Source of the DNA: an uncultured Gemmatimonadales bacterium
GTDB lineage: Bacteria > Gemmatimonadota > Gemmatimonadetes > Gemmatimonadales > GWC2-71-9
Reading direction: 5' to 3'
NCBI GenBank assembly: GCA_963842945.1
Contig: CAWJIM010000019.1
Location: 544,001 to 608,000 of the forward strand
DNA: 64,000 bases
Part shown: piece after piece, positions 2,707-30,323 of the stretch
Numbering within the stretch: position 1 is the stretch's first letter
Layout of the letters: every line of letters begins with the position of its first letter
The notes under the pieces: model-generated
Databases searched by the model: none
Seen by the model: the letters and a program-made list of their open reading frames with translations, nothing else
What the model was told of the DNA's origin: nothing
Translations under genes and position numbers: made by a program

Positions 2707-2779
<73 letters not shown>

Positions 2780-3275
2780 TTGCAGTTAGCCCACCTCTCG
2801 ACCCCTCCACCTTTGACCAACCTTTGCCGTTCTGTTCGGATCGCCGGGCGGGGTGTGGATCTTGTGGACAAAGGTGCCTGTGAAGGGAGGAATCGAACCC
2901 CAGGGCTACCCCGCCGAGCCACCCCTCGGCCGGAGCTCGAGCCCCCAGCTGAGGAGCGGGGCAGACAGCTCCGGCCCGCTCACTGCCGGTCGTCCAGGAT
3001 AGCGTCGAGCTTGGCGAGGGCGCCATGCAGTGTTGGGCCGCCGCACAGCTCGCACGTCGGCGTCCCGGCGGTGTGTACTCAAGGCACAGCGAACCGTCAG
3101 ATCCGGAGTCCCGCCTGCGAGTGGTCGCCGCGGCCGACAACGAAAGATCTCGACTGCCATTCAGTGAGCCTGCGCACACTTGGTATCCGGCCACCCCGGC
3201 ATACTGAACCGTGAGCGGGAGCGCGCCCGACCGCAACGCCCCGCTGTAGGCGTAGCTTGGGGGAGGTGTCCGATC

Positions 3276-4799: not shown

Positions 4800-5140
4800 T
4801 CGGCGGTGCTGACCGACCGCTACGTCATCGAGCGCGAGCTCGGCCGGGGCCGGAATGGCCACCGTCTACCTCGCGCGTGACATGCGGCACGACCGACACG
4901 TCGCTCGCAGGTGCTGCTTCCCGAGCTCGGCGCGATCGTCGGCCCTGGTTCCTGAGCGAGATCAGAGCTGTTCGACGATCACTTCAAGGTCGGCGTCCTT
5001 CGCTCACGGTACGTGCTTCCGCACGGCGAAGGGTTCGTCGTGCTGCCACCGGAGGTCGAGTCCAGGAGGTGGTGGCGCTCAACTGGCTCGAGGTGCGGTC
5101 GCGGATGGATCCGCGCACTGCGGGCCGAACTCGTGACTGA
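4800..5140 (+). pseudogene. Internally deleted remnant of a Ser/Thr kinase + beta-propeller gene
   Basis: Frameshifted DRYVIERELGRG/MATVYLARDMRHDRHVA...FLSEIR is joined almost directly to VLPHGEGFVVL...EVVALNWLEVR, which resembles the C-terminal tail of the kinase at 6494-9164. Confidence 0.7.
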
Positions 5141-6109: not shown

Positions 6110-6260
6110 ATGACCGACGACCTCGATCGACTGCAGGCCGCCCTGGCCGACCGCTACCTGCTCGAGCGCGAGCTCGGCCGCGGCGGCATGGCCACGGTCT
6201 ACCTCGCGCGGGACCTCCGGCACGAGCGGAAGGTCGCAAGCAAGGTGCTGCGCGTCGAGC
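6110..6260 (+). pseudogene. Ser/Thr kinase N-terminal fragment
   Basis: MTDDLDRLQAALADRYLLERELGRGGMATVYLARDLRHERKVASKVL, then kinase similarity stops. Confidence 0.8.
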
Positions 6261-6480
6261 GTGACGATCGCCAATCGCGAGGTCCTCATCGGCGGGGAGT
6301 GGGCGACTGAGCTTGCTACGTTCGAATGGGGTCTGGTACCGGTGGGGGGGTGGACCGGCCGTCGTCGACCGGGGCAGCTACGTTCAGGTCTGGCACCATG
6401 GGCCAGATGGACGATGGCTCTTCGCCCGCGAGATATGGAACAGCGCGACCCGGCCCATGACTGCGTCGAAGGAGCCGTGA
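6261..6480 (+). pseudogene. C-terminal fragment of an NTF2-like/DUF4440-type protein
   Basis: EVLIGGEWATELATFEW...(frameshift in a G run)...DRGSYVQVWHHGPDGRWLFAREIWNS, stop at 6478-6480. Confidence 0.55.
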
Positions 6481-6493: not shown

Positions 6494-9164
6494 TCAGCGC
6501 CCGGGAGCCCGTTGCTGTAGCAGCCCGGTCCAGTGCTGCAGGTACACGAACTGCGACAGCCTACCCTGCCGCACCATGACGAAGCCCTTCCCGTCCGGCA
6601 TCACGTCGTAGTTCGCGTGCGGGACCGCGGGCTCGAAATCCGTCACGGCAAAGAGCGGCGTGCGTGAGATCACCCGGGGAGAGGGCGTGGTCTCGATCCG
6701 CGCCGCAATCAGCTGCGGCTCACCCGGGCCGAGGCTCCGGTAGAACAGCTCGCGTCCATCGCGAGACCAGAGCGGCTCGCTGCCGCCGTCCTGCGACACC
6801 AGCAGCTTGCCGGCTGTGCCATCGAGCGCCCTGAGGTAGACATCCGAGCGATTCGCCTCGTTGGAGACGTACGCCAGCCAGCGGCCGTTGGGCGACAGGG
6901 CAGGATAGCCCTCGTCATACGGCGTCGCCGCGAGCGGCTTCGGCTTCCCTCCGCCGCTCAGCGGCACCGTGACGATGTCACCCGGCCCGGTGATCGGGAG
7001 CACCACCGCGAGGCCGGTACGGCCATCGGGCGTCACGGCGTGCACAGTGATCTGTGCCCCCTCGAAGTACACCGAGTCGGCAGGGCGACTGCCGTCCACG
7101 GGTGCGCGCACGATGCCGGTATGTGCGCCATGAATCTCGGCATAGATCAGCTCCCTCCCGTTCGGGAGCCACGTCGGATCGTGGCCGGAGTTCTGGAAGG
7201 TGGCGCGGGACAGCGTGCGATCGGTCAGGTCGAGCACCCACACGTCGCGCGTCTCCGCCGCGAAGTCCAGGGCCACGCGGCGGCCGTCGGGCGAGACCCG
7301 CGGACTGTGATAGGAGCGCGGCTGGTCGAGCAGCGGCGTGACCCGTCCGTCCCGAGTCACGGTCACCAGGGTGAGCGGTTGCGCCGGCACATACGCCAGC
7401 GCTGTGCGTCCCGCCTGCGCAATCTTGGGACGTGATCCCCGAGTCTGCTGCACGGTGATGCCGAGGGACTGCACCGGGCCGGTGATGCGGGCCTTCCCCG
7501 GGTCGAAGGTGGCGGCATACACGACCCCGCCGGCCTGGCACCAGACGAGGTGGCCGTCGCTGTAGGCGGCCCAGGCGATAACGCCGAGGGGAAGAGGCAC
7601 CCGGCCGCCATTGCGAGGATCGACCGCGACGAGGTTTCCCTGAGCATAAGCCGTGGTCCCGATGGCAAGAATGCGCCCGCCCGGGAGCACCTGCATGACA
7701 TCGAGGCTTCCTTCTCCCTTGGTCGAGTCGGGCAGGGCGATGGGCTGCACCGTGCCGTCGTTCTTCAGCCGAGCCAGTGCGCCCGATTCGGTCGTCACCA
7801 CGAACTCGTCGTTTCCCGCCCAGCGCATCGCCGTCAGTCTGGGATCGCCCGGGATGGCGGTGGCGGCTCCGCCCGTGCTGGGAATGCGCTTCAGATGACC
7901 CTGCTGCAGAAATGCGAGGTACCCGCCGTCAGGAGAGAACACCGCGCAGCAACCGTTCTCGGTGCCGGCCAGCGGCACCGGCGTGAGCTGATCGAGCGCC
8001 CGCACGTACACCTGCGATACGCCGCCCGGACCCTCGGCGGTGTAGGCGAGGAGATCGCCGCTGGGCGAGACGGCGGCGAGGGGATCCACCAGCGCGAGCT
8101 GCTGCTCGGCAGGCAGCGTGATCCCCAAGCGGGCCGGCGGTACCGCCGGCGCCGCGGAGCGACCGAGGACGTAGGTCCCGGCGCCAACGAGCGCCAGCGC
8201 CAGGACTGACAGGACAACGCCGGTGAGGAGGCTCGTCGGCTTCGCGCGACGGGTGAGATGGTCCGGTCCCGCAGTCGTGGGACGAGGCACCGTCACCGCC
8301 CCACCACTCAGCGCAGACGCGAACTCCGCGGCCGTAGCAAAGCGGTCGGCAGGAAGCTTCTCCAGCGCCGTCAGCACCGCGGCCTCGACCTGCGGCGGGA
8401 TGGTGTGGCGCTGGGGAACGAGCGGGCCGCGGGGTCTCGGTAACCACCCGGGCCACGATCGCCTGCGCCGTGCTACCGGTGAAGGGCGGCTCGCCGGTGA
8501 GCATCTCGTAGAGCACGGCGCCGAGGGCGTAGACGTCGGAGCGGGCGGTGATCTCCCGCTCGCCCATCGCCTGCTCGGGACTCATGTAGTGCGGGGTGCC
8601 GAGCGACATACCGGTCTCGGTCATCCGGGTGTCGCTCGCCTTGCTCGCCGCCAGCGCGATTCCGAAGTCGGCCACCAGCGCCCGGCCGTCGTGCAGGAGG
8701 ATGTTCTCGGGCTTGATGTCCCGGTGAACGACCTCATGGCGATGCGCATAGTCGAGCGCCGAAGCCACCTCCGAGGCGATGCGGACCGCATCGGGCACGG
8801 GGAGCTGCTTCTCCCGGCGCAGGCGGTCGCGCAGTGACTCCCCCTCCACGAAGGGCATGACGTAGAAGAGGCAGCCGTCCGCCTCGCCCGAATCGAACAG
8901 CGGCAGGATATGCGGATGCTGGAGATTGGCGGTGAGCTTGATCTCGGCGAGGAACCGTTCTGCCCCGATGATGGCGGACAGCTCGGGCCGCATGAGCTTG
9001 AGGGCGACCCTGCGGTCGTGGCGGAGGTCGTGCGCGAGGTAGACCGTGGCCATTCCTCCGGCCCCGATCTCGCGCTCGATCCTATACCGATCCGCGAGCG
9101 CGCTCTGAAGGCGGCTGAGGAGTTCGGGCGTGGTTGTCTCCGGCTGTAGAGAAAGATGCACCAA
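6494..9164 (-). CDS. Ser/Thr protein kinase with TM helix and TolB/PD40-like beta-propeller (frameshift near 8430)
   Basis: ORF 7929-9164 has the kinase motifs GAGGMATVY, HRDIKPEN, DFG and GTPHYMSPEQ. ORF 6494-8377 continues with SPDG/SPNG propeller repeats. Start uncertain. Confidence 0.9.
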
Positions 9165-9726
9165 GATGGCCTGGATTACCGTGGCCAGCTAGCTCGTGGT
9201 ACGAGGGCCGGCCGGCTTCGGGTGTCATCGGAGCCTCCCTGGACTGCAGTGAGAGACTGGTCGATCACCGTGGGTATCGATGGCGGCTGAGTTCCGCGTG
9301 CGCGAGAAGCCGGTGCGTGACACTGAGCCCGGAGATAGCCCTCTCTTCACTCGGTGGTAGTCCCGGTGGAAGTTGGTGACCCAGGCATACGCCGTTCCCC
9401 TCTTCCCTGCTCTGCTCGAGCCACCGATTCCCACGCCCCCATGGTCGCTGCCCATGGCTCCTCGACCATCTTCCGTCGGGCCGTGACGAAGTTGTAGAGG
9501 TTTAGGCTCTTGAGGTGTGGGCCGAGCGGCGGCGATGGTGAGGGTATGGAACGCGGGCGCCGAACAGGGGTGTCAGCGGCGGCCCCCACGGTAGGCCTTG
9601 ACGTCCGACGTCACTGCGACGTCATTCGCCGTCCACCCGCGTCCGATGGTGACCGATAGACGAGTCGCGCAAACGCTTGCCGTCCAGCGCTGGACACTCG
9701 TGGAAAGCAAGCCGGCACGAATCTTC

Positions 9727-9774
9727 AGGATCCTGTCCCGCAAGGGGTCCGGGTTCGACTCCCGGCGTTCGCAT
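9727..9774 (+). repeat. tRNA-Leu 3'-half copy 1 (att-like site)
   Basis: AGGATCCTGTCCCGCAAGGGGTCCGGGTTCGACTCCCGGCGTTCGCAT: 3' anticodon stem, long variable arm, T-arm, acceptor strand and discriminator A. No 5' half upstream. Confidence 0.9.
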
Positions 9775-9783
9775 CCAACGACT

Positions 9784-9811
9784 TAGGGCCTCTCGATCGA
9801 GAGGCCCTTTT
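9784..9811 (+). terminator. Intrinsic terminator-like hairpin
   Basis: AGGGCCTCTCG-AT-CGAGAGGCCCT followed by TTT. Confidence 0.7.
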
Positions 9812-9954
9812 CTCGGGATGTCACTTCGGATGTCAGTCATTTCGGTAAGGAGTAATGCGGCGTATAGGTGTCATCGAGACGCTCAGGAGGCGTTCGTCGT
9901 TGGCGATCCATGCTCGGTCACCCCACATTGCAGTATTCCCATCCAGGCAGTGAC

Positions 9955-12900
9955 GTGACGTCAGTCGACTCGCACTTCGCCGACGCTCTCCGTGACCGCT
10001 ACGTGCTCGAGCGCGAGCTCGGCCGTGGCGGCATGGCCACGGTCTATCTCGCCCGCGATCTCCGGCACGACCGCCCCGTCGCCCTGAAGGTCCTCCATCC
10101 CGAGCTGGCGCACGCGCTGGGCCCCGAGCGGTTCATCCGGGAGATCAGGCTCGCCGCCCGGCTCGACCACCCGCACATCCTGTCGGTCCACGACTCCGGT
10201 GAAACGGCCGGCCGGCTCTGGTTCACCATGCCCTACGTGGAGGGCGAGTCGCTCCGGAACCGCCTGGCGCGCGAGCCCCAGCTCCCGCTGGCGGACGCGC
10301 TGCGGATCACCCGGGCGGTGGCCGACGCGCTGGGATACGCCCAGCGGCAGGGCATCATCCATCGCGACGTCAAGCCGGAGAACATCCTGCTCCAGGGCGA
10401 GCGATGCGTGCTCGCCGACTTCGGCGTCGCCCGAGCCGTGGACGCCGCCGGCGAGCGCCTGACGGAGACCGGCTTCGCGCTGGGCACGCCCGCCTACATG
10501 AGTCCGGAGCAGGGCGCGGCCGACCGCCATCTCGACCCTCGCAGCGACATCTACTCGCTCGGGTGCGTGGTGTACGAGATGCTCGCGGGCGAGCCGCCGT
10601 TCACCGGACGGACGGCCCAGGCCCTCATCGCCCGCCGGCTGGCGGATCCCGTGCCCGACCTCTGCACGGTGCGTGACGTCCCCCGGCAGGTCGAGCGAGC
10701 CGTCAGGCAGGCGCTGGCCCGCGCGCCGGCGGACCGGTTCGCGGACGCGCCGGCCTTCGCGCGGGCGCTGGAGGCCGCGGCAGGCGCGCCCCGCGCGGCC
10801 GCGAGCCCCGCCGTTCGACGAGGTCTGCTGGCCGCGGCGGCGGTGCTCCTGGTCGCTCTCGCCGGCGCCGGCGTCTGGCTGCGCGCTCGGCCTGCCGCCG
10901 AAGACGCCCGCGACGCCGACCTGCTCGCGGTCGCCCCGTTCGAGGTGCTGGAGCCGTCACTCCAGGTCTGGCGGGAGGGCATGGGCGACGTGCTCTCCCG
11001 CACGCTCGACGGGGCGGGCCCGATCCGCACGGTGTCGCCGAGCGTGGTGCTCCGGCGCTGGAGCGGCCGGGCCGATCGGACATCCGCCGAGGAGCTGGGG
11101 CGCCGCACCGGGCGCGGGGCTGGTCGTCTACGGTGCGGTGGTGCCGCGAGGGCGGGACTCGGTGACGCTCCGCGCCGCCCTGCTCGATCGCGCCGGCGGA
11201 ATGGGAAAGACGGACATCGAGGTGTCGGGCGAGGCGGCCCGCATCGGCGAGCTCGCCGACTCGCTCGGCATCCGGGCGCTGCGGGTGCTCTCGTCCGGCC
11301 GGGCGATCGGCTCGGTCCGCCGGACGTCGATCGGCTCGAAGTCGCTGCCCGCGCTGAAGGCGTTCCTCCAGGGCGAACAGTTCTACCGGCGAGGGCTGTG
11401 GGACTCGGCGCTCACGCGGTACGACCAGGCGATCGCGGCCGACAGCACGTTCGCGCTGGCGCTGGCACAGATGGCCATGGTGCTCGGCTGGAACCCGCCG
11501 ACGGCGGGCGCGTACCGGCCGCGCGAGGAGTACATGCGGCGTGCGACCCTCCACAACCACGGGCTTCCCCCGCGGGACAGTCTCTACATCGTCGCCGACT
11601 CCTTCAGACCTCGCGGCGGAGGAGGTGACCGATGCCGGAGGCGTATCGTCCGCCTGAAGTTCCGCGCGGTGACGGCGGTGGAGGAGGCGGTCCGACGCTA
11701 CCCCGAAGACCCCGATGGCCTGGTATGCGCTCGGCGAATGGCGCATGGCCACGAGCCGTGGCCCATTGCCGGGCCGCCGGCCGTGTCACTCGAGGCCTTC
11801 ACCCGCGCGATCGCGCTGGATCCGGGGTTCGGGCCAGCCTACGAGCACATGCCGGCACTGCTTCTGTCCCTGGGACGCCCGGAGGAGGCCCGGCGCTACG
11901 CAGCCACCTACCTGGCCTCTGGACCCGACCTCGCCCCACGGAGCCGGGACACGCCTGGCGGCGCTATTGCTGGACGGGGTGGCGGGCGAAGCGGGTGATG
12001 TTGACACGGCTTCGGTCTTCACTGTCTGGGCGCGTTCCGCGGCCACCTACCTGGCCCTCGACTCGACCGCTCGACCGTCCGAAATCCGCCTGGCGGCGCT
12101 GTTGCTGGACTCGAGTGCGACCGCCAGGGCCGAGGCGGAGCGGATGCTCGACACGGCGTCGGTCTACACCGTCTGGGGGCGGCGTCAACTCAGCATGTGG
12201 CCGCCCTGGCCCGACACGGCCGAGACCGCAATCCGGCTGCTGCGGCGCCTCGGCGAGCCGGGCCGAGGCGCCGGTGGAGCGCCTCCGTGGGTCCTCGACT
12301 CGGTCATGTGGCCGCAGTACCTGGCTCACGCGCTCGCGTTCCGCGGCCACCTGCGCGAGGCCTTCGCGGTGAATGAGCGCCTGCTGCGCCAGCCTTCCGC
12401 CTCGCCGTGGAGCTGGTTCCTCGACCCGTTCCTGGACCTCAGCCTGCTCGGGATCGTTCCGGACTCGCTGGCCCGCGCGACCTTCGGTCGCTGCCCTCGA
12501 GGCAGACGCTGGCTGGGGGGACTTCTTCACTCCACCGTCACTTGAGGGGGCTGCCCTGGTGGCTGTCGCGCGGCGACACGGCGGCCCTGGCACGCTTCGG
12601 CGCCCAGGCGGCTCGCACGGCGCGGGCACCCAGCGACCCCGCGCGCGGCCCTGCGGGCTCGGCTGCTCGGAGAGACGAGCGTCGCGTTCCTCGATCTGGC
12701 GCGGGGCGATTCCGTGGCGGCGATCCGGAAGCTGAGCGCGATCCCCGACACGCTCTGCCTGGCGGACAACTACGCCGCCAACTGCTTCCACCTGAACCTG
12801 ACGCTGGCGCGGCTCCTGGCGGCTCGCGGTGACGATCGGCGCGCCGGCGCGTTGCTGGAGCGCTGGCGGTGGAGCGGCGGCAGCACGCCGTCGTTCGTGC

Positions 12901-13064
12901 TCGCCACGCTCGAGCTCGGCCGTATCGCCGAACGGCTCGGGGACACGCGGAAGGCGGCCGAGTGCTATGGCTTCGTGATGGCGGCCTGGCGCCGGCCAGA
13001 TCGGGAGCTGCTGCCCTACGTGGCGGAAGCGCGGGAAGGGCTGGCGCGGCTCGGTGTGGAGTGA
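9955..13064 (+). CDS. Ser/Thr protein kinase with TM, TolB-N-like and TPR-like C-terminal region (several frameshifts)
   Basis: Kinase motifs (GRGGMATVY, HRDVKPEN, DFG, GTPAYMSPEQ) in ORF 9868-11628. Continues through ORFs 10673-11998, 11715-12545 and 12714-13064 (ALTRYDQAIAADSTFALA, FTRAIALDPGF). Confidence 0.8.
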
Positions 13065-13244
13065 GGCCGCCTGGGGCCTGGGCGGTGGGCCCGACCGTGC
13101 AGCGGCCGAGGCTGTGCCGGAACTGTGCCGGAACAGGAGACAACTGCGGACTACACGGGACAACAGGACCGAGGCACAAGTCCAACAGCCACAACACTCA
13201 CGTGGTCTGCTCTTGTCTGCTGTGTCACCCCGCCATTAGGACTT

Positions 13245-13292
13245 AGGATCCTGTCCCGCAAGGGGTCCGGGTTCGACTCCCGGCGTTCGCAT
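13245..13292 (+). repeat. tRNA-Leu 3'-half copy 2 (att-like site)
   Basis: Identical 48 bp to copy 1, preceded by TTAGGACTT. Confidence 0.9.
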
Positions 13293-14871
13293 CCCCCTCT
13301 GATCCAATCACTTAAACAATCGCCTTGGCAGCACTGAAGGATGTGCCGCCAAGGCGATGTCTTTTCGAATGTCTCTTCGACCTGTACTGGCCATTCGTGC
13401 AGCTCAGGTACGCGGGGGCGCGAGGGCCGGTGTAGGCGTCACCGATGCTCCACGGCGGTCTGATCCGCCCACGGCGCCCGCTCCAGTCGGCGATCCTCGA
13501 ACCCGAGACGCCTGGCTACGACCCGGTAGGAGAACTCGGCGTCCGGATCGCCCGCGCGAAGCTGCACCACAAAGCCGAGTGGCGTCCGTTCGCTCACGTA
13601 GAGCTCGGCGTTCCCATAGGGCTGCACAAAGACATGGTACGGCGTCGCCGGGTTGACGGTCTGGGCAAAGATGGGATCGAGGAGGATCCGTGCCCGGCCA
13701 TGATCCAGTCGTCCGAAGCCGTAATCGGTGAACCAGACCTCGCTGGATTCCTCGGTGTAGAGGGCTCGTGCGCCGGTGGTCGTCGCCACCACGGCATTCT
13801 TGCTCCCGCCCACGACCTGGAGACCGGCGCCGCCCCTGGTCTCGATGATCACGCCTTTGCCCGTCGCGGAGGCGGCCACGAAGTGCCCGGCCCAGCCGTG
13901 GCCGTCGGTGTAGATGTAGGCGGCGTCGCCAAAGTTGTTCGGATTGTTGATCACGAAGTTCGCCGCCCCCCCGATTCCGTAGGTGCGCCCGAACACCGCC
14001 GCCACGCCGTTGCTCGGGCTGGTATTCTCGAACGATCCGCCTCGACCGTTCCCTGTCGCCCTGCCCTGCACACCGCTTCCCGAACCCGGACTCGTGCCGA
14101 AGACCGCCGCGCTCCCATTGTTGGGGTTGGCGACGGTGAACAGTCCAGCCGGACCGGTCCCGGTGTTCACGGCACTGATCGCGTTGCCCGAGCCTGCGGT
14201 GAAGGCGTACACTGCATTGCCGCCGTTGGCGGCACTGGTATTCTCGAACTTGGCCGCCGAGCCGGTCCCGCTCGCCACCGCATGCACCGCGTTCCCGGTC
14301 CCGTTGGTCTTGGCCAGCAGCGCGTCCTGACCGCTCGCGGCGTTGGTGATTTCGAACAGCCCCGCCCGGCCGGCGCCGGTGGAGAGTCCGCGTACCGCGT
14401 TGCCGGTGCCGTTGGTCTGCCCCAGCAACGCGGTCTGGCTGTTGCCGGCGTTCGCGATCTTGAAGAACCCGGTCGGCCCGGTACCGGTCTGGGTCAGTCC
14501 GAAGATGATGGCGCTGCTGCTGGAGCTCTGGTTGACCGGGAGCACGATGGCCGCGTTGGCCACCAAATCGGCGGACGACTCGACCGAGGCGAGGGTGGGC
14601 TCGGCGGTTGCCGCGGCCGGGATGTCCGGATCGGTGGGCGGGCCGCCCTGGTCGCAAGCCAGCAGAGCGAGCGACAGGGCGAGGGGCAAGCGAATGCGAC
14701 GGGGCGAGGGCATACGTCCTTCCTTGTTGGGGAGTCCACGAAAGACGCCCGGTTTGCCCCAGGAGCCCCTCATCCCTCCCCCCGGGTACGACCTCCCCCC
14801 AGAAGGCCCCCTGAGTGACTCGGCCCGACGTCAGGGGCATTTTGTCTGCGTCCATCCGGCCGTTAGGACCT
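13293..14871. mobile_element. Putative non-autonomous integrated cassette C (one lipoprotein gene, no integrase)
   Basis: Flanked by identical 48-bp repeats. Ends resemble those of cassette B. Confidence 0.55.
13439..14713 (-). CDS. Lipoprotein with Gly/Asn/Ala-rich repeats and a tail-fibre-chaperone-like C-terminal domain
   Basis: LALLAC lipobox. Repeats such as AGLFxxxNxxxGxxAVxGxTxGTGNA. C-terminus GGSKNAVV...LYTEESSEVWFTDYG...FSYRVVARR. AAGGA RBS. Confidence 0.75.
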   Translation of the reverse strand: MPSPRRIRLPLALSLALLACDQGGPPTDPDIPAAATAEPTLASVESSADLVANAAIVLPVNQSSSSSAIIFGLTQTGTGPTGFFKIANAGNSQTALLGQTNGTGNAVRGLSTGAGRAGLFEITNAASGQDALLAKTNGTGNAVHAVASGTGSAAKFENTSAANGGNAVYAFTAGSGNAISAVNTGTGPAGLFTVANPNNGSAAVFGTSPGSGSGVQGRATGNGRGGSFENTSPSNGVAAVFGRTYGIGGAANFVINNPNNFGDAAYIYTDGHGWAGHFVAASATGKGVIIETRGGAGLQVVGGSKNAVVATTTGARALYTEESSEVWFTDYGFGRLDHGRARILLDPIFAQTVNPATPYHVFVQPYGNAELYVSERTPLGFVVQLRAGDPDAEFSYRVVARRLGFEDRRLERAPWADQTAVEHR

Positions 14872-14919
14872 AGGATCCTGTCCCGCAAGGGGTCCGGGTT
14901 CGACTCCCGGCGTTCGCAT
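14872..14919 (+). repeat. tRNA-Leu 3'-half copy 3 (att-like site)
   Basis: Identical 48 bp, preceded by TTAGGACCT. Confidence 0.9.
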
Positions 14920-14983
14920 TCCCGTTCCTGGGCGCCCGATGGTTGCGCGAGCTAATTCTGTCACTTCTTTGAGTGAGGCTCAT

Positions 14984-15982
14984 ATGAGCATCGCTTTGAT
15001 CGCCCTCCTCACGTTTCCGCGTGCAGCGTACGCACACGAGAAATGGTTCGCCGACGCCAGCGCGTATCCCACGCAGTGGGAGCAGGTGTTCAGGTTTCCG
15101 CAGATTGTCGGCGTATCGCTCGCGCTGGCCGCCACCATCATGCTCGCAATCGTGTGGCGCAGGAACAAAGGTCGCGCGCTGCTGCCGGGACCGGAGGCCC
15201 TCGGCGCGACGCGCGACGGACGCGCACGCTTTTATGCGCTGGTGCCGCTCATCCTCGGGATTCATGTCGGATTGCCGCTGCTCGTGCTGGGGATCATGGG
15301 ACAGTTGTTCTCGCCGAACAACCAGCTCGCAGGACCGTGGCTGTACTGGCTGGGCGTCGTGGAGATCGGAATCGCCCTGAGCTTGCTCTACGGCGGTCTG
15401 GCCCGGGTGGGCGGGGCAGCATTGTGCCTGCTCTGGCTGATCGGCGCCGGCGTCGTCGGGCTGGAGTCGATGCTCGAGAACGCCCACTATCTCGGGTTCG
15501 GCGCGTTCTTCATGCTGACGGGGCGAGGCCCCTACGCGGTCGACCGGTTGCTGTTTCCCGCCCTCGAGCCGACGCCGCGGCTGTCGCGTCTCGCGATGCC
15601 GTGCCTGCGGATAGGGACGGGGCTGGGCCTGACGATTGTCGCGTTCACCGAGAAACTCGCCAACCCTGAATTGGCTCGGGCATTCCTGCAACACCATCCG
15701 CTGAACTTCACCGCCTGGCTGCACATCCCGATGTCAGACGACCTCTTCGTGTTGTGCGCGGGCAGCACAGAACTGCTGATCGGGCTCTGCCTGATCTTCG
15801 GTATCTTCCCCCGGCTCATCGTGGCGACTGCCTGGCTCCTCATCAACATGTCGCTGACGGTGTTCAATTGGGTGGAGCTCGTCGGGCATCTCCCTCTGTA
15901 TGGCGTGATGGCGATGCTGCTGGTGTGGACGCCGCGAGAGGAAGACCAGCGGCTGTGGGCCGAAGGTATCCTCCAGAGATGA
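14984..15982 (+). CDS. DoxX-like multi-pass membrane protein
   Basis: AHEKWF N-terminus, many TM segments, FTEKLANP and ELVGHLPLYG motifs. Confidence 0.7.
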   Translation: MSIALIALLTFPRAAYAHEKWFADASAYPTQWEQVFRFPQIVGVSLALAATIMLAIVWRRNKGRALLPGPEALGATRDGRARFYALVPLILGIHVGLPLLVLGIMGQLFSPNNQLAGPWLYWLGVVEIGIALSLLYGGLARVGGAALCLLWLIGAGVVGLESMLENAHYLGFGAFFMLTGRGPYAVDRLLFPALEPTPRLSRLAMPCLRIGTGLGLTIVAFTEKLANPELARAFLQHHPLNFTAWLHIPMSDDLFVLCAGSTELLIGLCLIFGIFPRLIVATAWLLINMSLTVFNWVELVGHLPLYGVMAMLLVWTPREEDQRLWAEGILQR

Positions 15983-16104
15983 ATCGGGCGAATCGGTGTG
16001 TTCACCGGCGTATGACGGCCTCGGCACATGCGATCCATGGCCGCCGCGGCCTACAGCTCATCGCGGCGGCGGTGTAACTTCCCCATCCCTACGACCCCAA
16101 CCTT

Positions 16105-16986
16105 ATGACGGCTTCAGCCAATCCCGTGACCGCCTCGTTGCGGCAGCCCGCGCTCCGGTCGCCCGAATTCGGACTGGCCCTCGGGCTCGTCGTCGGGCGC
16201 TTCGCGCTCGACATGCAGGACCTTCATTACGGCTACTGGACCGACGACCTCGAGCTGACGCCGCAGAACATTCCGCGGGCCCAGGCCCGCTACACTGACG
16301 AGCTGATGGCCGACATCCCCGCGGGCGTGCGCTCGATTCTCGACGTGGGCTGCGGGGCGGGGAACACGGCGCACAAGCTGCTCGAGCGGGGCTACGAGGT
16401 CGACTGCGTCTCGCCCAACGCCTGGCTCACCGCGGAAGCCCGCAGGGTGCTGGGGACCCGGGCCCGGGTCTTCGCGTCCAAGTTCGAGGACCTCACCCTG
16501 GACCGGACCTACGACCTGATCCTCTTCAGCGAAAGCTTCCTCTTCATGAAGGCGGAGCAGGCGCTGGCGAAGGCGGAATCCGCGCTCCAGCCCGGCGGTT
16601 ACATCCTGATCTCCGACATCTTCAAGCTCCCCGCCGACGAGAAGAGCCCGATCGGCGGCGGCCAGGACCTGCGCCGCTATCGCGCGCTGCTCGCCGCCTC
16701 GCACTTCACCCAGCTCAAGGACACCGACATGACGGCGAATATCGCGCCGACGTTCGATCTCCTGAGCCGGGCCTACGTCGAGGCGATCGGCCCCGCCTAC
16801 GGGCTCATCCTCGCCAAGCTCGACGCGTCGTATCCCCGGCTGATGAAGTTCGTGCGCTGGAAGTGGAGGGCCAGGATCGCCCGCTACGAGGAGAAGCACT
16901 TCAGCGGCAAGCGCGACGGTGCGCACTTCATGAGGCACAAGTCGTATCGGAGGATGCTGTATCAACTCAGGATTGGGGGCTCGTGA
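16105..16986 (+). CDS. Class I SAM-dependent methyltransferase
   Basis: LHYGYW, ILDVGCGAG, YDLILFSES and LQPGGYILISD motifs. Confidence 0.85.
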   Translation: MTASANPVTASLRQPALRSPEFGLALGLVVGRFALDMQDLHYGYWTDDLELTPQNIPRAQARYTDELMADIPAGVRSILDVGCGAGNTAHKLLERGYEVDCVSPNAWLTAEARRVLGTRARVFASKFEDLTLDRTYDLILFSESFLFMKAEQALAKAESALQPGGYILISDIFKLPADEKSPIGGGQDLRRYRALLAASHFTQLKDTDMTANIAPTFDLLSRAYVEAIGPAYGLILAKLDASYPRLMKFVRWKWRARIARYEEKHFSGKRDGAHFMRHKSYRRMLYQLRIGGS

Positions 16987-17221
16987 AGTCCACGGGGAAG
17001 TACTACCCCTGGTATCTCCCATCTGCAGCCGCAATACGCCCCTGCCCGCTCGCCAGACGATAGCAGCAGGCCGTCTCCTACGAGCCGGATGGTGCATCGG
17101 GTCCAGACGCAGCATAATGTTTCGGGCCAACCGAAGAACCACGCCGGAGCCTGCGACGTTCCTTTGGCGACACTGAAGCCGCCCGGCGTCCGGCTCCTCG
17201 CCCGATCGGTAGGAGAATTGG

Positions 17222-17890
17222 ATGGAGCGTCGCACCGGCCGGCATGCCGGAGCGCCCGCCGACACGAGCCCGGAGAGCAAGGGTCCTTCCGACACCGCTG
17301 CGCCGGGTCGGCGCCTGCTCGAGACCGGGCGGGAGACGTCGCTGCGCAAGCGGCTCGTCGCCCGGGACGAGCGCGCGCTCGCGGAGCTGGTGGAGGTCGC
17401 CACGCCCTGGCTGCTCAACGTCGCGCGGGCCATGCTCCGGGACGAGGACGAGGCGGAAGAGATCGTGACGGAGGCGTTTCGCCAACTCTGGCAGAACCTC
17501 CCGTCGGCCGCTGGAGAGCACGCCGGGCTGATGCCCTACCTCATGCGGCTCACGCGACATCGGGCGATCGATCGCCTGCGAGCCCGCCGACGGCGCCAGC
17601 GCCTGCTGAGCGCGGCGGCCTTGGCTGGCGAGCCTCCGGTCGTCCCGCCCTCCGAGCCGGATGAGGCCGGACAGCCGGGATATCAGGTGCATGCGCAGGT
17701 CCATGCGGCGCTCAAGGCGCTGCCGGCTGATGAGCAGGCAGTGGTGCAGCTCGCCTATTTCCAGGGCCTGTCGCAATCGGAGGTCGCCGCCGCGCTGGGA
17801 ATTCCGCTCGGGACGGTGAAGTCACGTCTCCGGCGCGCGTTCGGCCGGCTGCGCGAGTCGCTCGCTGGACTCGAGGACTGGGTGGTATGA
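17222..17890 (+). CDS. ECF RNA polymerase sigma factor (SigK-like)
   Basis: Region 2 RHRAIDRLR. Region 4 LAYFQGLSQSEVAAALGIPLGTVKSRLRR. Confidence 0.9.
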   Translation: MERRTGRHAGAPADTSPESKGPSDTAAPGRRLLETGRETSLRKRLVARDERALAELVEVATPWLLNVARAMLRDEDEAEEIVTEAFRQLWQNLPSAAGEHAGLMPYLMRLTRHRAIDRLRARRRRQRLLSAAALAGEPPVVPPSEPDEAGQPGYQVHAQVHAALKALPADEQAVVQLAYFQGLSQSEVAAALGIPLGTVKSRLRRAFGRLRESLAGLEDWVV

Positions 17891-18627
17891 ATCCGCATGA
17901 CTGGTTCGCCGAGCGCGCGGTCGAATACGCGACCCGCACGCTGGACGCCGAGGAGGCGACAGCGTTCGAGACGCATCTCGGCCAGTGCGACGCATGCCGG
18001 ACGCGAGGTCGCGGAGATCGAGCGCGACCTCGCGTGGCTGCCGATGGCCCTGCCTCCGGTCACGCCGAGGCCGGGATTTCGCGAGCGGATCGTCGCCGGC
18101 GCTCTGGGCAAGCGGCGTCCGACTCGCCGCGTGAGCTGGGCGCTGCCGACCGCGCTCGCGGCCTCACTCCTCCTCGCGGTGGGCGGCTGGTACCTGGGTG
18201 GCGCACGCTCCCGCGCCCTCGCAGCGCGAGCTCGAGGCCCAACGGGCCGCGGTGGCGGCACTCCAGGACACGCTCTCGATCATGCGGCAAGCGGGCCGCA
18301 TCCTCCAGGCGACCTTCGAGGACGGCCGCACCAGCGGCGGCGTGCTCATCTTCGCGGACGAGGTCACCCACCGCTGGAACGTGGTGATCCATGGGCTGCC
18401 ACCGGCGCCCCGAGGTTACCAGTACCAGTTCTGGTTCATCTGCGACGACGGCATGGTGCGAGGCACGGAAGTGGCCGCCGATACCAAGCAGGCCCACCAT
18501 GTTCACGACCGGCATGCCGCAGCCCGCGTCGTGCCCCGTGGTGAAGGGTGCGGCGCTCACCGAGGAGCCGGTCGCCGACGGACAGGGGCCGCCGCGTGGA
18601 AAGTCGCTCGCCCATCTGATGCTTTGA
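17887..18627 (+). CDS. Anti-sigma factor (zf-HC2 + RskA-like), frameshifted
   Basis: FETHLGQCDAC (HxxxCxxC), TM helix, GLPPAPRGYQYQFWFI and ALTEEP pieces spread over three frames. ATGA overlap with the sigma gene. Confidence 0.8.
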
Positions 18628-18810
18628 GCGGTCGTTGGCTGCCCCCCGTTCGCGCTTCTTGACGTCCGCTTGATCCCGCTCCCGAAAGTTGATCCGCACC
18701 TCACACAGTGGTGAGGACAACCTTCGCTGGAGCTGCAGATGAGACACGCGTGTTTCAACTCTCCGAATCGCTCACGGCGTGTTTCCCGCGCTCCGCTTCC
18801 GGCATCGCCG

Positions 18811-20475
18811 ATGAGACTGAGGCACGTCGCACGACTGTGGATACTCGGGCTCCTGCTGGCCGGCTGCGGAGACCGGGACGAGAGCCCGCTGGGCCCGCCT
18901 GATGCCACGACTGCCGCCCCGACCACGGCGATGGGCGATGTCGTCGCTCGAGCCGACAAGCTGCGCCATGCCGTCGACTTGGGCGCCCCGACAACGTCGA
19001 CTGCCGCGCCTGCAGCGCTGTCGGCAGATCTGGAATCCGCCGGGGCGACTTCGATCCCGTTTGCACCGAAACCAGGGCCCTTCGCGCATGCCGTGCCCGA
19101 CTGCGACGACTGCATGTTCGATGGGTTCCCGATCGGCTTCACCTTCGCCTTCTTCGGCAACAACTACACGACCTTCAGCCTCTCCACCAACGGCTTCATC
19201 ACGTTCACCCCCGGCCAGACCGCCGGCTGCTGCAGCGGCCAGCCTGTTCCCTGGATCGACTTTCCCAATAACATCATCGCGGCAGCCTGGACCGACCTGT
19301 ACTCGCCCGGAGGTGGAGGAATCTTCTACGAGACCCGCGGTCAGGCCCCGAACCGCTTCCTGGTGGTCGCGTTCCAGAACCTCCCCTGGTTCCCCGAGGT
19401 GGGAATCAACCGGGTCACCACACAGATCGTGCTCTACGAGGGCAGCAACACCATCGAGATCCACACCGCCAACCAGTCGGCGGGCCACATCTACACGCAG
19501 GGCGTCGAGGATGGGAACGGCTTCCGGGCCGCGTCGCTGCCCGGCCGGTCGGACGCCAACTACGGCCTCACCAACGATGCGGTCCGGTTCACCACGTTCG
19601 GCAACTTCTGGTCATCGCGAAGCGCCGTGCCGACCGCGCGCCAGCGCCCGGCCGTCGCGGCCGCCGGAGGCAGCCTCTACGCAGTGGGCGGACTCAATGG
19701 CGCGGGCACCGCGCTCACGAGCGTGGTTGCCTACAGCTCGGGGAGCAACAGCTGGAGCAGCAGGGCGGCGCTTCCGGCCGCCCGTTACGGCAGCGGTGCC
19801 GCGGGCATCAGCGGCAAGCTGTACGTCGCCGGCGGCTTCAATTCCGCCGGGACGCTCACCCGATCGCTGTACGTCTACACCCCGAGCACCAACCGCTGGG
19901 TCGCCAGAGCCGGCATGCCGGCGGCGAGCGGCTGCGGGGGCTCCGGGATGATCAACGGGATGCTGTACGTCTTCACCGGCTGCACGCTCCTGAGCACCGG
20001 GAGCCAGGTCGGCGCGGGGCTGCTGCACCGCTACGATCCGAGCACCGACACATGGACCACGCTTACCGCGGCGCCGGCGGCGCACGTGTATCCGGCGGTC
20101 GGTGTCCTGGACGGCAAGCTCTATGTGGCGGGAGGAAGCAACAACTCCGGGCAGACCACGGGGCGACTCGATGTCTACGACCCGGCGACCAACACCTGGA
20201 CCACCCGGAGTCCGATGCCCACGGCGCGGCTCTCCGCGGCCGGTGCGGGGGTCGGCGGGCTGTTCTACGTGGTGGGCGGACGGAGCGGGACGGCCTACCT
20301 GAACACGGTCCAGGCCTACAATCCCGCGACCGAGTCGTGGGGCTCGATGAAGCCCGTCACCACCGCCCGTGCGGGGCTCGGGCTCGCTCTGGTCAACAGT
20401 GAAGGACGGTTCTACGCCGTCGGGGGTCGGAACGCAAGCAATGTGCTGGGGACCAACGAGCGCTATACGCCCTGA
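18811..20475 (+). CDS. Lipoprotein with NIDO-like domain and Kelch beta-propeller
   Basis: LLAGC lipobox. IGFTFAFFG...STNGFITF...IIAAAWTDL. About six Kelch repeats (LYVAGG...YDPxTxxW). Confidence 0.85.
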   Translation: MRLRHVARLWILGLLLAGCGDRDESPLGPPDATTAAPTTAMGDVVARADKLRHAVDLGAPTTSTAAPAALSADLESAGATSIPFAPKPGPFAHAVPDCDDCMFDGFPIGFTFAFFGNNYTTFSLSTNGFITFTPGQTAGCCSGQPVPWIDFPNNIIAAAWTDLYSPGGGGIFYETRGQAPNRFLVVAFQNLPWFPEVGINRVTTQIVLYEGSNTIEIHTANQSAGHIYTQGVEDGNGFRAASLPGRSDANYGLTNDAVRFTTFGNFWSSRSAVPTARQRPAVAAAGGSLYAVGGLNGAGTALTSVVAYSSGSNSWSSRAALPAARYGSGAAGISGKLYVAGGFNSAGTLTRSLYVYTPSTNRWVARAGMPAASGCGGSGMINGMLYVFTGCTLLSTGSQVGAGLLHRYDPSTDTWTTLTAAPAAHVYPAVGVLDGKLYVAGGSNNSGQTTGRLDVYDPATNTWTTRSPMPTARLSAAGAGVGGLFYVVGGRSGTAYLNTVQAYNPATESWGSMKPVTTARAGLGLALVNSEGRFYAVGGRNASNVLGTNERYTP

Positions 20476-20481
20476 CCCGAT

Positions 20482-21330: not shown

Positions 21331-21515
21331 GATGGTCGGTAATCTAACCTTGCTTGGCAATCTAACCTTGTGGCGCGGAGCGCCCGGCCTGGCCGTTTGG
21401 CAATGGCCGATAGCGCTCATCTCCCGGATTTGTAACATCGTCCGCTCGAGGTCTGGCGATGTCGCCCCGCAGGACACAGCTTCGCTGCAGCCATTGGTGA
21501 ACCCGGGAGGCGGGG

Positions 21516-21782: not shown

Positions 21783-21829
21783 CGGAAGCTCGGCAATCTC
21801 CGGCTCCCTGTCTCGCCCGGAAGTCAGCC

Positions 21830-22264: not shown

Positions 22265-22281
22265 CCGCTGTCACAATCCTG

Positions 22282-27131: not shown

Positions 27132-28385
27132 ATGAGCCAGATCACCGTAGAGAAGACCGCCGAGGATTCCGCCTCCAAATCGCTCCGGGTGACCGTCCCG
27201 GTGGACCGCGTCCGCGAGGCCGAGGCCAAGGCCGTGAAGTACTACGCCAAGCGCGCCCGGCTGCCCGGGTTCCGCCCCGGGAAGGCGCCCGAGGCCGTGG
27301 TCCGCAAGCGGTTCAACGACGCCATCCGGCAGACCATGCTGGAGGAGCTGCTCCGCGAGAGCTGGGAGACCGCCAAGACCTCGGAGTCGCTCAAGCCGAT
27401 CGCCGACCCCTCCGTCCGCAATCTCAAGTTCGAAGAGGGCAGCCCCATCGAGTTCGACCTGCTGGTCGAGGTCCGGCCCGAGATCAAGCTCGAGCGCACG
27501 GGCGGCTTCCGGGTGGAGCGGCGGGCCGCGGCGGTGCCCGACAGCGCCGTGACCGAGCGACTCGCCTCGTTCCAGGAGGCCAAGGCCGCCTGGATCCCGG
27601 TGACCGGGGAGAAGCCCGCCCCGGGCCAGATGGTGCGGCTCGAGGTGGCGCCCATCGAGGACGGCACCGCCGGCGCCGCGCAGCCGTACGACCTGGTGCT
27701 GGGCCAGAACCAGGCGATCCCGGAGGTCGAGGAGCGGATCATGGAGATGCTCCCCGGCGAGACCCGGGAGACCGAGGTGCGCTTCCCCGAGGATCACCCG
27801 GACGAGAGCCGCCGGGGCCAGAGCCGCCGGGTGCGGATCGCGCTCCACGAGGTGAAGCGGCAGGAGCTGCCCCCGCTCGACGACGCCTTCGCCCGTGAGA
27901 TGGGCGACTTCGAGAACCTCGACGCCCTGCGCGCGGCCGTCCGCCGCGACCTCGAGCGCGAGGCCGAGCGGGACGCCGACGCTCAGGTGCGCCAGGCGCT
28001 GCTCGCGCAGGTGGTCGAGGCCAACAACATCACGGCGCCCGAGTCTCTGGTGCACCGGCTGATGCACGGCTACGCCGAGATCTACCGGATCCCGCCGGAC
28101 CAGCTCCCCGCCTTCGAGGGGCAGTTCCACGAGATCGCCGAGTCGCAGGTGAAGCGGGACCTGGTGCTGGACGCGATCGTGGAACAGCAGGGGCTCCGCG
28201 CCACCGAGTCCGAGATCGACGCCCGGGTGCAGGCGATGGCCGAAGGGCGCGGCGTGTCGGCGGGCGAGCTCTACGGCTCGCTCCAGAAGTCCAACCGGCT
28301 GGCGGAGCTGGAGCGCGGACTCACCGAGGAGAAGGCGTACCAGTACCTGCTCGGGCAATCCACTGTGGAAGAGGCGACGATCTGA
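27132..28385 (+). CDS. tig: Trigger factor
   Basis: PGFRPGKAP ribosome-binding motif. Upstream of clpP-clpX. Confidence 0.95.
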
Positions 28386-28387
28386 CG

Positions 28388-29014
28388 ATGGCTACGCTCT
28401 ACCCTCCGTACATCATCGAGCGCTCCAGCCGGGGCGAGCGGACGTACGATATCTTCTCGCGGCTCCTCATGGACCGGATCGTGTTCCTGGGAGCCCCGAT
28501 CAACGACGACGTCTCCAACATCATCATCGCCCAGCTGCTGTTCCTCGAGGCGGACAACCCCGACAAGGACATCTACCTCTACCTCAACTCGCCGGGCGGG
28601 GTGGTGTCGGCGGGGATGGCGATCTACGACACGATGCAGCACCTGCGGGCGCCGGTGAACACGATCTGCATGGGCATGGCCGCGTCCATGGGCTCGTTCC
28701 TGCTGGCCGCCGGCACCAAGGGGAAGCGCAGCGCGCTGCCGCACTCCCGGATCATGATCCACCAGCCCTCGGGCGGCGCCCAGGGCACCGCGGCGGACAT
28801 CGAGATCCAGGCTCGGGAGATCCTCTATCTGCGGTCCAAGATGAACGCACTCTACGCCCTGCACACCGGGCAGCCGATCGAGACCATCGAGCGCGACATG
28901 GATCGCGACCGGTTCATGAGCGCCGAGGAGGCCAAGGCGTACGGGCTGATCGACAGCGTCTTTACGCCCCGCAAGGATCTGGTGCCGCACAGCGACGGGA
29001 AAAAGGAGACTTGA
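28388..29014 (+). CDS. clpP: ATP-dependent Clp protease proteolytic subunit
   Basis: [25 protein letters not shown] and [11 protein letters not shown] motifs. Confidence 0.98.
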
Positions 29015-29075
29015 CGCTCCGGGAGCCGGGGTTCACTATTCCGGCACCCCTCCATCACCAGGCGAAGTGGGTTCC

Positions 29076-30322
<1,247 letters not shown>

Positions 30323-30323
<1 letters not shown>

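What the first reader, a model, noticed from the sequence alone, without database searches (positions are those of the whole stretch)
9727..14919. Array of integrase-free single-gene cassettes delimited by identical tRNA-Leu 3' halves
Seen: three identical 48-bp direct repeats (9727, 13245, 14872) that fold as the 3' half of a long-variable-arm tRNA. Identity begins inside the anticodon loop. The two intervals (3470 and 1579 bp) each hold one gene, a Ser/Thr kinase and a repeat lipoprotein, and I see no integrase in the window. Known: tyrosine-recombinase elements often cross over in the anticodon loop, duplicate the tRNA 3' part and can accumulate in tandem. Inference: these units are far smaller than typical islands, yet their cores are unmutated. 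They could be minimal non-autonomous cassettes moved by a trans-acting integrase, forming an integron-like array built on tRNA-half sites that swaps signalling and surface genes.
Basis: partly seen in the sequence, partly recalled or inferred. Interest (0 to 1): 0.85.

Follow-up and report, generated by a model that had tools for sequence, protein, structure and literature searches.

The report
Integrase-less gene stack at tRNA-Leu
Three identical copies of the 3' half of a leucine tRNA gene mark the seams of small gene units without an integrase, which were likely stacked by repeated site-specific insertions at a tRNA hot spot of a soil bacterium; this is a known way of building genomic islands.

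Summary
Three identical 48-nt repeats (9727, 13245, 14872) are the 3' half of tRNA-Leu(UAG). None belongs to an intact tRNA. No integrase gene lies in the window.

The repeats are attachment-site seams. Each is flanked by element arms that recur in relatives. In the same genus, 13 other genomes carry an intact tRNA-Leu(UAG), then 1.2-10 kb of variable cargo, then a partial copy. None of these intervals holds an integrase. One relative holds the same kinase in an equally small unit. Another shows a filled and an empty site.

Five broken integrases sit beside this tRNA in relatives and one metagenome contig. Intact paralogues sit beside tRNA-Phe, tRNA-Leu(UAA) and tRNA-Leu(CAA). Their arms carry the repeat motif also found in the window's 133-nt cassette end.

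So this is a CIME-like or tycheposon-like stack, not an integron. It lies inside a roughly 24-kb mosaic island between tRNA-Phe and tig-clpP-clpX. The kinase here is a pseudogene. Movement by an integrase acting in trans is possible but untested.

The scan has already noted this kind of array in other phyla. I score it as a new member of a known kind, of moderate interest.

The parts
9727..9774 (+). Copy 1 of the tRNA-Leu(UAG) 3' half. It is an attP-like seam with a type-B right end on its left and a type-1 left end on its right.
13245..13292 (+). Copy 2 of the 3' half. tRNA identity extends back to 13238.
14872..14919 (+). Copy 3 of the 3' half. tRNA identity extends back to 14865, with one mismatch in the anticodon loop.
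   Evidence: A 180-nt contig of run X1 bridges 14808-14988.
9607..9726 (+). Type-B cassette right end, read as an inferred P arm. It holds GACGTCACT/GACGTCATT direct repeats and resembles the right end of the G103 kinase cassette.
   Evidence: (78% to L029 3463-3628)
9775..9845 (+). Type-1 left end. It consists of AACGACTTAGGGCC, a hairpin terminator (9787-9815), and the repeats GATGTCACTTCG and GATGTCAGTC.
   Evidence: 84-92% to 6 relatives' left ends
10003..13064 (+). Ser/Thr kinase-TPR pseudogene, the cargo of unit 1. The first 370 aa are 96% identical to the intact 973-aa G113 gene. After that the match moves through frames 1, 2 and 3, with further breaks.
13112..13244 (+). Type-A right-end module. 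It holds CTGTGCCGGAA twice, GACAAC repeats and GGTCTGCTCTTGTC, and is read as an inferred P arm with integrase arm sites.
13293..13384 (+). Left end of unit 2. It has a type-2-like start, a hairpin (about 13319-13359), and the repeats GATGTCTTTTCG and AATGTCTCTTCG.
   Evidence: 79-87% in G020, L099, L163, L165
13439..14773 (-). Lipoprotein gene with a lipobox (LLAC) and 36-aa Gly/Asn-rich repeats. It is the cargo of unit 2.
   Evidence: (108-nt repeats). It has no Pfam family.
14831..14871 (+). Truncated remnant of a type-A right end before copy 3.
   Evidence: 29 of 43 aligned columns identical to the end of the module
14939..15982 (+). Membrane-protein ORF with no Pfam family. It lies between copy 3 and the methyltransferase that directly follows the tRNA in two relatives.
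16047..16986 (+). Methyltransferase gene and its leader. In G106 and in metagenome contig L157 this is the first sequence after the tRNA or its last half.
2707..2880 (+). tRNA-Phe followed by an integrase-type P' arm (CCTTTGACCAACCTTTGCC ... GGACAAAGG) with no integrase behind it.
6494..9164 (-). Kinase-PD40 gene split over two frames near 8380. It is the cargo left of copy 1.
27132..30323 (+). tig-clpP-clpX, the native right flank of tRNA-Leu(UAG) in relatives.

Best explanation
The three repeats are attachment-site seams of a tandem stack of small gene units that likely arose by successive tyrosine-integrase insertions into the tRNA-Leu(UAG) gene and then lost their integrase genes. Each seam is a tRNA-Leu(UAG) 3' half flanked by conserved element arms. 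Shown directly: the repeats are tRNA 3' halves, each is bordered by element ends that recur in other genomes around different cargo, and the native neighbour of this tRNA is tig-clpP-clpX. In the window that operon lies 12 kb beyond copy 3. Inferred: each incoming element carried its own copy of the tRNA 3' half, a terminator hairpin and arm sites. It recombined in the anticodon stem-loop and pushed older units away from the tRNA. Deletions then removed the integrase and the arm repeats next to it. Later rearrangement removed the intact tRNA head and erased other seams. The result is a roughly 24-kb mosaic of signalling and envelope genes between tRNA-Phe and tig. Whether the units can still move with an integrase supplied in trans is open.
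For: (1) The repeats are the tRNA-Leu(UAG) 3' half.
(2) Thirteen other genomes of the genus carry an intact tRNA, 1.2-10.2 kb of cargo and a partial copy on one contig. G102 instead has two intact tRNAs.
(3) The cargo differs between genomes. It includes kinase-TPR, FadL-like OMP, lipoproteins, Nramp+PxpABC, glycosyltransferases, ECF sigma, Kelch, PP2C and a TonB-type OMP.
(4) No integrase lies in any of the 16 intervals, by Pfam on the main ORFs and by a six-frame HMM that recovers 6 of 6 control integrases. In G020, G106, G113, G086 and G103 the nearest PF00589 hit on the tRNA's contig is at least 67 kb away.
(5) In G094, G064, G091, G052 and G082 the intact tRNA's 3' half differs from the displaced half, as expected if the element supplies a new half.
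(6) In G103 a 3.53-kb kinase unit sits exactly between the tRNA and the half in contig C21 and is absent from C20. The flanks are 94-98% identical.
(7) Broken integrases lie directly after this tRNA in G117, G014, G044, G110 and metagenome contig L143.
(8) Intact 407-418-aa paralogues lie about 200 nt after tRNA-Phe, tRNA-Leu(UAA) and tRNA-Leu(CAA). Their arm has two direct CCTKTGNCS repeats and one inverted copy, the motif of the window's type-A module.
(9) The 133-nt type-A module is 80-92% identical between the window and 11 genomes. A 79-nt part is 99% identical in G103. The tig gene of the same genomes is 75-81% identical in the 5 of 5 cases where both could be measured.
(10) In empty sites the tRNA ends 59-81 nt before tig.
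Against: No intact integrase specific for tRNA-Leu(UAG) was found. It was absent from the 103 genomes of the genus, from 78 metagenome loci and from the viral contigs searched. Units with the type-1 left end show no integrase trace in any of about 17 cases, so their recombinase is unknown. The array has no intact tRNA at its head, and the tRNA's 5' half occurs in the MAG only on contig C21, in a variant gene. Copy 3 does not abut the native flank. The MAG is mixed: it has 6% contamination, two tmRNAs, two tRNA-Sec genes and a second tRNA-Leu/tig locus. The junction left of copy 1 has no independent read support. The three halves are identical although the model derives them from different elements. 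That identity needs donors with the same tRNA variant, or gene conversion.
Confidence: 0.7

Rival explanations
1. The units are live, non-autonomous cassettes. An integrase encoded elsewhere, in the genome or on an incoming element, would excise and re-insert them through their conserved arms. The locus would then work as a cassette exchanger for sensor kinases and envelope proteins.
For: The cassette ends are more conserved than the housekeeping gene tig, and one 79-nt part is 99% identical across species. The same kinase occurs in different array positions with different left ends in the window and in G113. G103 has filled and empty alleles. None of the 16 intervals holds an integrase, although integrases of this family stay intact at other tRNAs. 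The arm motif is shared by integrases with four different tRNA targets.
Against: No candidate helper was found for this tRNA. G000 has only two Xer-like genes, one integrase beside tRNA-Leu(UAA) and one fragment beside tRNA-Leu(CAA). Most integrase-less units lack the P' direct repeats seen in integrase-bearing elements. The window's kinase is a pseudogene. No excision or circle junction was seen, though the data could not have shown one.
Confidence: 0.25
2. The array, or at least the join left of copy 1, is a mis-assembly of a mixed MAG. Contigs of two related strains, or of two tRNA islands, would have been joined through repeats.
For: The MAG shows 6% contamination, duplicated tmRNA and tRNA-Sec genes, a second tRNA-Leu/tig locus on C21, and a tRNA-Leu(UAG) variant on C16 found in 0 of 102 genus genomes. 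In G020 and G106, tRNA-Phe and tRNA-Leu(UAG) lie 736-787 kb apart, against 7 kb here. No public contig covers the flanks of copy 1 at 97% identity or more.
Against: The same seam types occur in other assemblies. Type B | half | type 1 occurs in L165 and L122, type A | half | hairpin end occurs in L165, and tandem pairs occur in 13 genomes. A 180-nt contig of another data set bridges copy 3. A 48-nt repeat is too short to mislead a long-contig assembly.
Confidence: 0.07
3. No site-specific recombinase is involved. The tRNA gene was duplicated in tandem, as in G102, and the 5' halves decayed. Alternatively, cargo is exchanged by RecA-type recombination using the tRNA halves as portable homology.
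For: G102 has two intact tRNA-Leu(UAG) genes 2 kb apart. The identical halves would allow homologous exchange.
Against: The identity boundaries are sharp and fall at two fixed points, tRNA position 27 and position 32, each tied to its own conserved non-tRNA arm. The halves of some pairs differ by compensated changes, which indicates import from other lineages. Integrase remnants and integrase-type arms sit at the site.
Confidence: 0.05

Closest known systems
CIMEs (cis-mobilizable elements) and tandem accretion at att sites of ICE/IME families. The definition is in PMC5704250 (passages read), which cites Pavlovic et al. 2004 and Bellanger et al. 2011 (reference list only).
   Same: The units are flanked by attL/attR-type repeats of the target gene's 3' end, they lack integration and transfer genes, and they lie in tandem at one site.
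   Different: The units here are mostly one to a few genes (1.2-6.5 kb). No conjugative relative was seen, and the one intact relative examined, at tRNA-Phe in G103, is an integrase plus cargo only. Mobilization in cis or in trans has not been tested.
Tycheposon islands of Prochlorococcus (bioRxiv 10.1101/2020.12.28.424599, passages read)
   Same: tRNA genes serve as hot spots. Successive integrations push older elements inward, partial tRNA copies separate the elements, fragmented integrases and stray partial tRNAs lie in the islands, and most island material is not an intact element.
   Different: The phylum, habitat and cargo differ: here a probable Gemmatimonadota soil organism carrying sensor kinases and envelope proteins. 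No replication module was seen, and no intact element was found at this tRNA. Kinship of the integrases with tycheposon integrases was not tested.
Classical tRNA-integrated genomic islands and prophages (P4- and lambda-type tyrosine integrases with arm-type sites). This comparison is from recalled textbook knowledge.
   Same: The crossover lies in the anticodon stem-loop, the tRNA 3' part is duplicated, the element supplies a new 3' half and a terminator, and repeated arm motifs lie on both sides.
   Different: No integrase lies in the window or in any of the 16 intervals, and the units are far smaller than typical islands.
Integrons (recalled knowledge)
   Same: They are arrays of small units of variable cargo separated by recombination sites.
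   Different: There is no intI, attI, Pc or attC here. The seams are tRNA halves with arms, the genes lie in both orientations, and they presumably have their own promoters.

Membership tests
tRNA-integrated genomic island (tyrosine-integrase type) | Direct repeat of the tRNA 3' part bounding the insert | tested here: met
tRNA-integrated genomic island (tyrosine-integrase type) | Intact target tRNA at one end | tested here: not met
   ARAGORN finds none at any copy. The 5' half is absent from the MAG except on C21. The feature is met in 13 relatives.
tRNA-integrated genomic island (tyrosine-integrase type) | Integrase gene inside the element | tested here: not met
   Only broken integrases lie at this tRNA in G117, G014, G044, G110 and L143.
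CIME / accretion array | att sites on both sides with no integration or transfer genes | tested here: met
CIME / accretion array | Derived from an integrase-bearing element of the same att family | tested here: inconclusive
   The type-A end shares its repeat motif with the arms of integrase-bearing elements, and L143 pairs a truncated integrase with a type-A-like end. Nothing comparable was found for units with the type-1 left end.
CIME / accretion array | Excision or transfer when a related integrase is supplied | not testable with these tools
   The only evidence is the filled/empty polymorphism in G103.
Integron | intI next to attI and Pc, with cassettes ending in attC | tested here: not met
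   No PF00589 match lies in the window. The seams are tRNA halves, and the genes lie on both strands.
Tycheposon | Integrase plus replication module with cargo, at a tRNA hot spot | tested here: inconclusive
   The hot-spot architecture is met. No replication genes were seen in the intact G103 tRNA-Phe element. Integrase kinship was not tested.

The most novel reading that the evidence does not exclude
A soil genus, probably of the Gemmatimonadota, runs a tRNA-anchored cassette exchanger. One- to few-gene units, above all sensor Ser/Thr kinases and envelope proteins, carry conserved bipartite ends. They are shuffled between species at tRNA-Leu(UAG), and likewise at tRNA-Phe, by integrases supplied in trans from sister elements parked at other tRNA genes. 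In function this would be an integron-like system built on tRNA halves.
Probability: 0.25. Interest if true: 0.65.

Novelty: new member of a known kind. Interest (0 to 1): 0.35.

Why it matters
The locus shows how an uncultured soil lineage turns over sensor kinases and surface proteins. Two tRNA genes act as landing pads, and most of what accumulates there has no recombinase of its own. The unit ends are better conserved than a housekeeping gene. The locus therefore offers a concrete test of whether integrase-less units are dead scars or are still moved in trans, an open point for CIMEs and for tycheposon-type islands. As a kind of structure it is already described, and this scan has met it in several other phyla.

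Tried and rejected
- Rfam over 8000-17000 at E<=1 gave only a weak suhB-like hit on the terminator after copy 1 (E 0.16). It gave no tRNA or other family.
- In viral contigs the tRNA half had 0 matches. A degenerate form of the arm repeat hit 4 contigs. Three are overlapping pieces of an unrelated phage of 51% G+C with CTTTGCCGGAA in tandem, and the fourth is a 68% G+C contig with nothing related nearby. None has a tRNA half at the match, so all were set aside. The truncated integrase P0004 had no relative in viral contigs.
- Serine recombinase PF00239 has no match in the MAG.
- The GATGTCNCTT repeat pair in the genus gave only tRNA-Leu-linked copies, one further partial copy (G110:C1) and chance coding matches. 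It gave no integrase.
- Base composition shows no contrast. The units are 67-72% G+C and the window is 69%.
- Reads were available only as short Logan contigs. The joints 9775->14988 (X3) and 13293->14988 (X6) are contigs in which a tRNA half is followed by a divergent 68 nt and then 14988 onward. They are relatives' versions of the copy-3 seam and are not excision products. No contig of X1, X2, X4 or X6 covers the flanks of copy 1 at 97% identity or more. These results therefore give no verdict on excision or on that junction.
- Earlier scan notes by place and by sequence returned nothing.
- One literature search for Gemmatimonad + genomic island + integrase + tRNA listed 12 papers. By title and abstract start, none of the 8 shown describes this locus.
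Full report
OBSERVATION

The window holds three identical direct repeats at 9727-9774, 13245-13292 and 14872-14919 on the + strand. Shuffles give no chance expectation for the last 23 nt. The whole MAG (4.3 Mb, 24 contigs, 86.9% complete, 6% contaminated) holds no further copy with up to 3 mismatches.

In relatives of the same genus the 47-mer forms positions 35-76 of a tRNA-Leu(UAG) gene. Of the 14 loci fetched from relatives, ARAGORN intact. The one exception is G020's second copy.

The identity shared by all three window copies begins at the second anticodon base. Copies 2 and 3 follow the tRNA 7 nt further, into the 5' strand of the anticodon stem.

None of the three copies belongs to an intact tRNA. 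The matching 5' half occurs in the MAG only on contig C21, in a gene whose 3' half differs at 4 positions.

No tyrosine recombinase lies in the window. The MAG has no serine recombinase.

WHAT THE INTERVALS HOLD

Interval 1 (3470 bp) holds a Ser/Thr kinase-TPR gene that is broken. Against the intact 973-aa orthologue of G113, residues 1-370 match in one frame at 96%. The rest matches in two other frames at 77% and 59%, with a further frame excursion.

Interval 2 (1579 bp) holds a minus-strand lipoprotein gene with 36-aa repeats. Its nearest relatives, at 40-50% identity, are in Gemmatimonadota MAGs. This suggests the phylum but does not prove it.

THE SEAMS HAVE ARMS

Every copy is flanked by non-tRNA sequence that recurs in other genomes around different cargo.

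- To the right of copy 1 lies a type-1 left end: AACGACTTAGGGCC, a terminator hairpin and two GATGTCNCTT repeats. The intact tRNA of G020, G051, G009, G086, G103 and G106 is followed by the same end.
- To the left of copy 1 lies a type-B right end with GACGTCACT repeats, as at the right end of the G103 kinase unit. So a further unit lies to the left of the finding.
- To the left of copy 2 lies a 133-nt type-A module: CTGTGCCGGAA twice, GACAAC repeats and GGTCTGCTCTTGTC. It is found in 12 of 102 other genomes of the genus. Where the adjoining sequence was read, it lies just before a tRNA-Leu half.
- Copy 3 is preceded by a truncated remnant of the same module.
- To the right of copy 2 lies a type-2-like start, a hairpin and two repeats. 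G020 and three metagenome contigs carry the same end.

THE GENUS

- Of 103 genomes, 82 match the tRNA 3' pattern.
- Ten others have an intact tRNA plus a partial copy on one contig, and G102 has two intact genes.
- G094, G064 and G091 add three more pairs, in which the intact tRNA carries a different variable arm.
- The spacings run from 1.2 to 10.2 kb.
- Cargo varies:
  - single intact kinase-TPR genes in G103, G106 and G113;
  - kinase remnants in G086;
  - a FadL-like OMP, a lipoprotein, Nramp+PxpABC, glycosyltransferases and a beta-helix protein in other genomes;
  - in the two largest intervals, ECF sigma, TPR, kinases, Kelch, PP2C and a TonB-type OMP.
- None of the 16 intervals, the window's included, has an integrase. 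That HMM recovers all six control loci.
- In five long-contig genomes the nearest PF00589 hit on the tRNA's contig is at least 67 kb away.
- G047, one of the 103 genomes in these tallies, is flagged as unpublished. No specific claim rests on it.

EVIDENCE FOR SITE-SPECIFIC INSERTION

- In several pairs the intact tRNA's 3' half differs from the displaced half, partly by compensated changes. This fits an element that brings its own half.
- In G103, contig C21 has a 3.53-kb kinase unit exactly between the tRNA and the half. Contig C20 lacks it, and the flanks are 94-98% identical.
- In empty sites the tRNA ends 59-81 nt before tig.
- In the window, tig-clpP-clpX starts at 27132, so at least 9727-27090 is inserted material.
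- No tRNA half lies at the edge next to tig. The methyltransferase at 16047 onward directly follows the tRNA in G106 and in contig L157. Some seams have therefore been erased.

THE INTEGRASE

Broken integrases lie directly after tRNA-Leu(UAG) in five places:

- G117, an 84-aa C-terminal piece;
- G014, a C-terminal piece;
- G044, two frames, with the contig ending inside the gene;
- G110, a 52-aa piece;
- metagenome contig L143, 292 aa, covering only PF00589 positions 3-86.

L143 reads: tRNA, an arm with CCTGTGCC/CCTTTGCC repeats, the truncated integrase, 9.1 kb, a type-A-like end, and a half.

Homologues of this protein with ORFs of 407-418 aa lie about 200 nt after tRNA-Phe, tRNA-Leu(UAA) and tRNA-Leu(CAA) in relatives. 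All have two direct CCTKTGNCS repeats and one inverted copy between the tRNA and the integrase start. That motif is the direct repeat of the type-A module. I read these as arm-type integrase sites, which is an inference.

Most integrase-less units keep only the first 25-45 nt of this left arm and lack the repeats (read by eye). This fits deletion of the integrase together with the arm repeats next to it.

Units with the type-1 left end never showed an integrase trace, in about 17 cases across.

The one intact relative I examined, at tRNA-Phe in G103, is an integrase followed by assorted cargo. It has no phage, conjugation or replication genes in 10 kb.

DEAD SCARS OR LIVE UNITS?

Evidence for activity or constraint:

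- The type-A module is 80-92% identical between the window and 11 genomes, and 99% over 79 nt in G103.
- tig is 75-81% identical in the five genomes where both could be compared.
- The same kinase occupies different array positions with different left ends in the window and in G113.

Evidence against:

- The window's kinase is a pseudogene.
- Kinase fragments litter 4800-4960 and 6144-6292.
- The kinase-PD40 gene left of copy 1 is split over two frames.
- No helper integrase is known.
- G000 itself has only two Xer-like genes, an integrase beside tRNA-Leu(UAA) and a fragment beside tRNA-Leu(CAA).

I put trans mobilization at about one in four.

CAVEATS

- The MAG is mixed.
- tRNA-Phe lies 7 kb left of copy 1 here, but 736-787 kb from tRNA-Leu(UAG) in G020 and G106.
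- tRNA-Phe is followed by an integrase-type arm without an integrase.
- The left part of the locus may therefore be a fusion of two tRNA islands or a mis-join.
- Public runs gave only short contigs. One bridges copy 3, and none covers the flanks of copy 1.
- Pieces with 0-3 differences over 150-470 nt in soil and rhizosphere runs show that the organism, or a close relative, lives there.

COMPARISON WITH WHAT IS KNOWN

The structure fits the definition of CIMEs and accretion arrays (PMC5704250, passages read).

It also fits the island architecture described for tycheposons: successive integrations separated by partial tRNAs, fragmented integrases, and most island material outside intact elements (10.1101/2020.12.28.424599, passages read).

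It is not an integron.

Earlier notes of this scan report the same kind of integrase-less tRNA-Leu arrays in actinobacteria, archaea and SAR11. I did not test those claims.

One literature search found no description of this locus type in Gemmatimonadota.

VERDICT

This is a new member of a known kind, of moderate interest.

Noticed in passing
window 2707-2880: tRNA-Phe is followed by the same kind of integrase arm (CCTTTGACCAACCTTTGCC ... GGACAAAGG) that precedes intact integrases after tRNA-Phe in G103 and G044. Here no integrase follows. Relatives show several extra matches restricted to the tRNA-Phe 3' part: 3 more in G103:C4, 4 more in G106:C5, and 1 each in G020 and G004. tRNA-Phe is therefore a second hot spot of the genus.
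   Followed up: partly
window 4800-4960 and 6144-6292: Two short fragments of kinase N-termini carry indels. The segment 4577-4969 is 78-81% identical to the leader plus start of the kinase units of G086 and G106. These look like debris of further kinase units.
   Followed up: partly
G000 contigs C16, C21, C1/C15, C10/C16: The MAG looks mixed. It has two tmRNAs, two tRNA-Sec genes and a second tRNA-Leu(UAG)+tig locus on C21, 81% identical to the window's. The tRNA-Leu(UAG) variant on C16 occurs in 0 of 102 other genomes of the genus.
   Followed up: partly
loci L085, L129, L149, L115, L097, L089, L074 and others: Many intact tRNA-Leu(UAG) genes of relatives are followed by a mini unit of about 55 nt. 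It reads GAGTGACGTCTAGTAGATCCGTTGGCC... and ends in a second copy of the last 17-22 nt of the tRNA. This is a third, T-loop-proximal duplication with almost nothing between the copies.
   Followed up: no
window 13990-14330 (minus-strand gene): The lipoprotein gene holds 108-nt (36-aa) Gly/Asn-rich repeats. The C-terminal roughly 150 aa are the most widely conserved part, at 50-70% identity in Chloroflexota and other phyla.
   Followed up: no
L027 (G086) inter-copy interval: The 6.5-kb interval holds two copies of the kinase unit in inverted orientation. One is 93% and the other 74% identical to the G106 unit. Both are broken.
   Followed up: no
L044, L045, L047 (viral contigs, 51% G+C): An unrelated phage carries CTTTGCCGGAA three to four times in tandem, the same 11-mer type as the cassette-end repeat. 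This is probably a coincidence.
   Followed up: no
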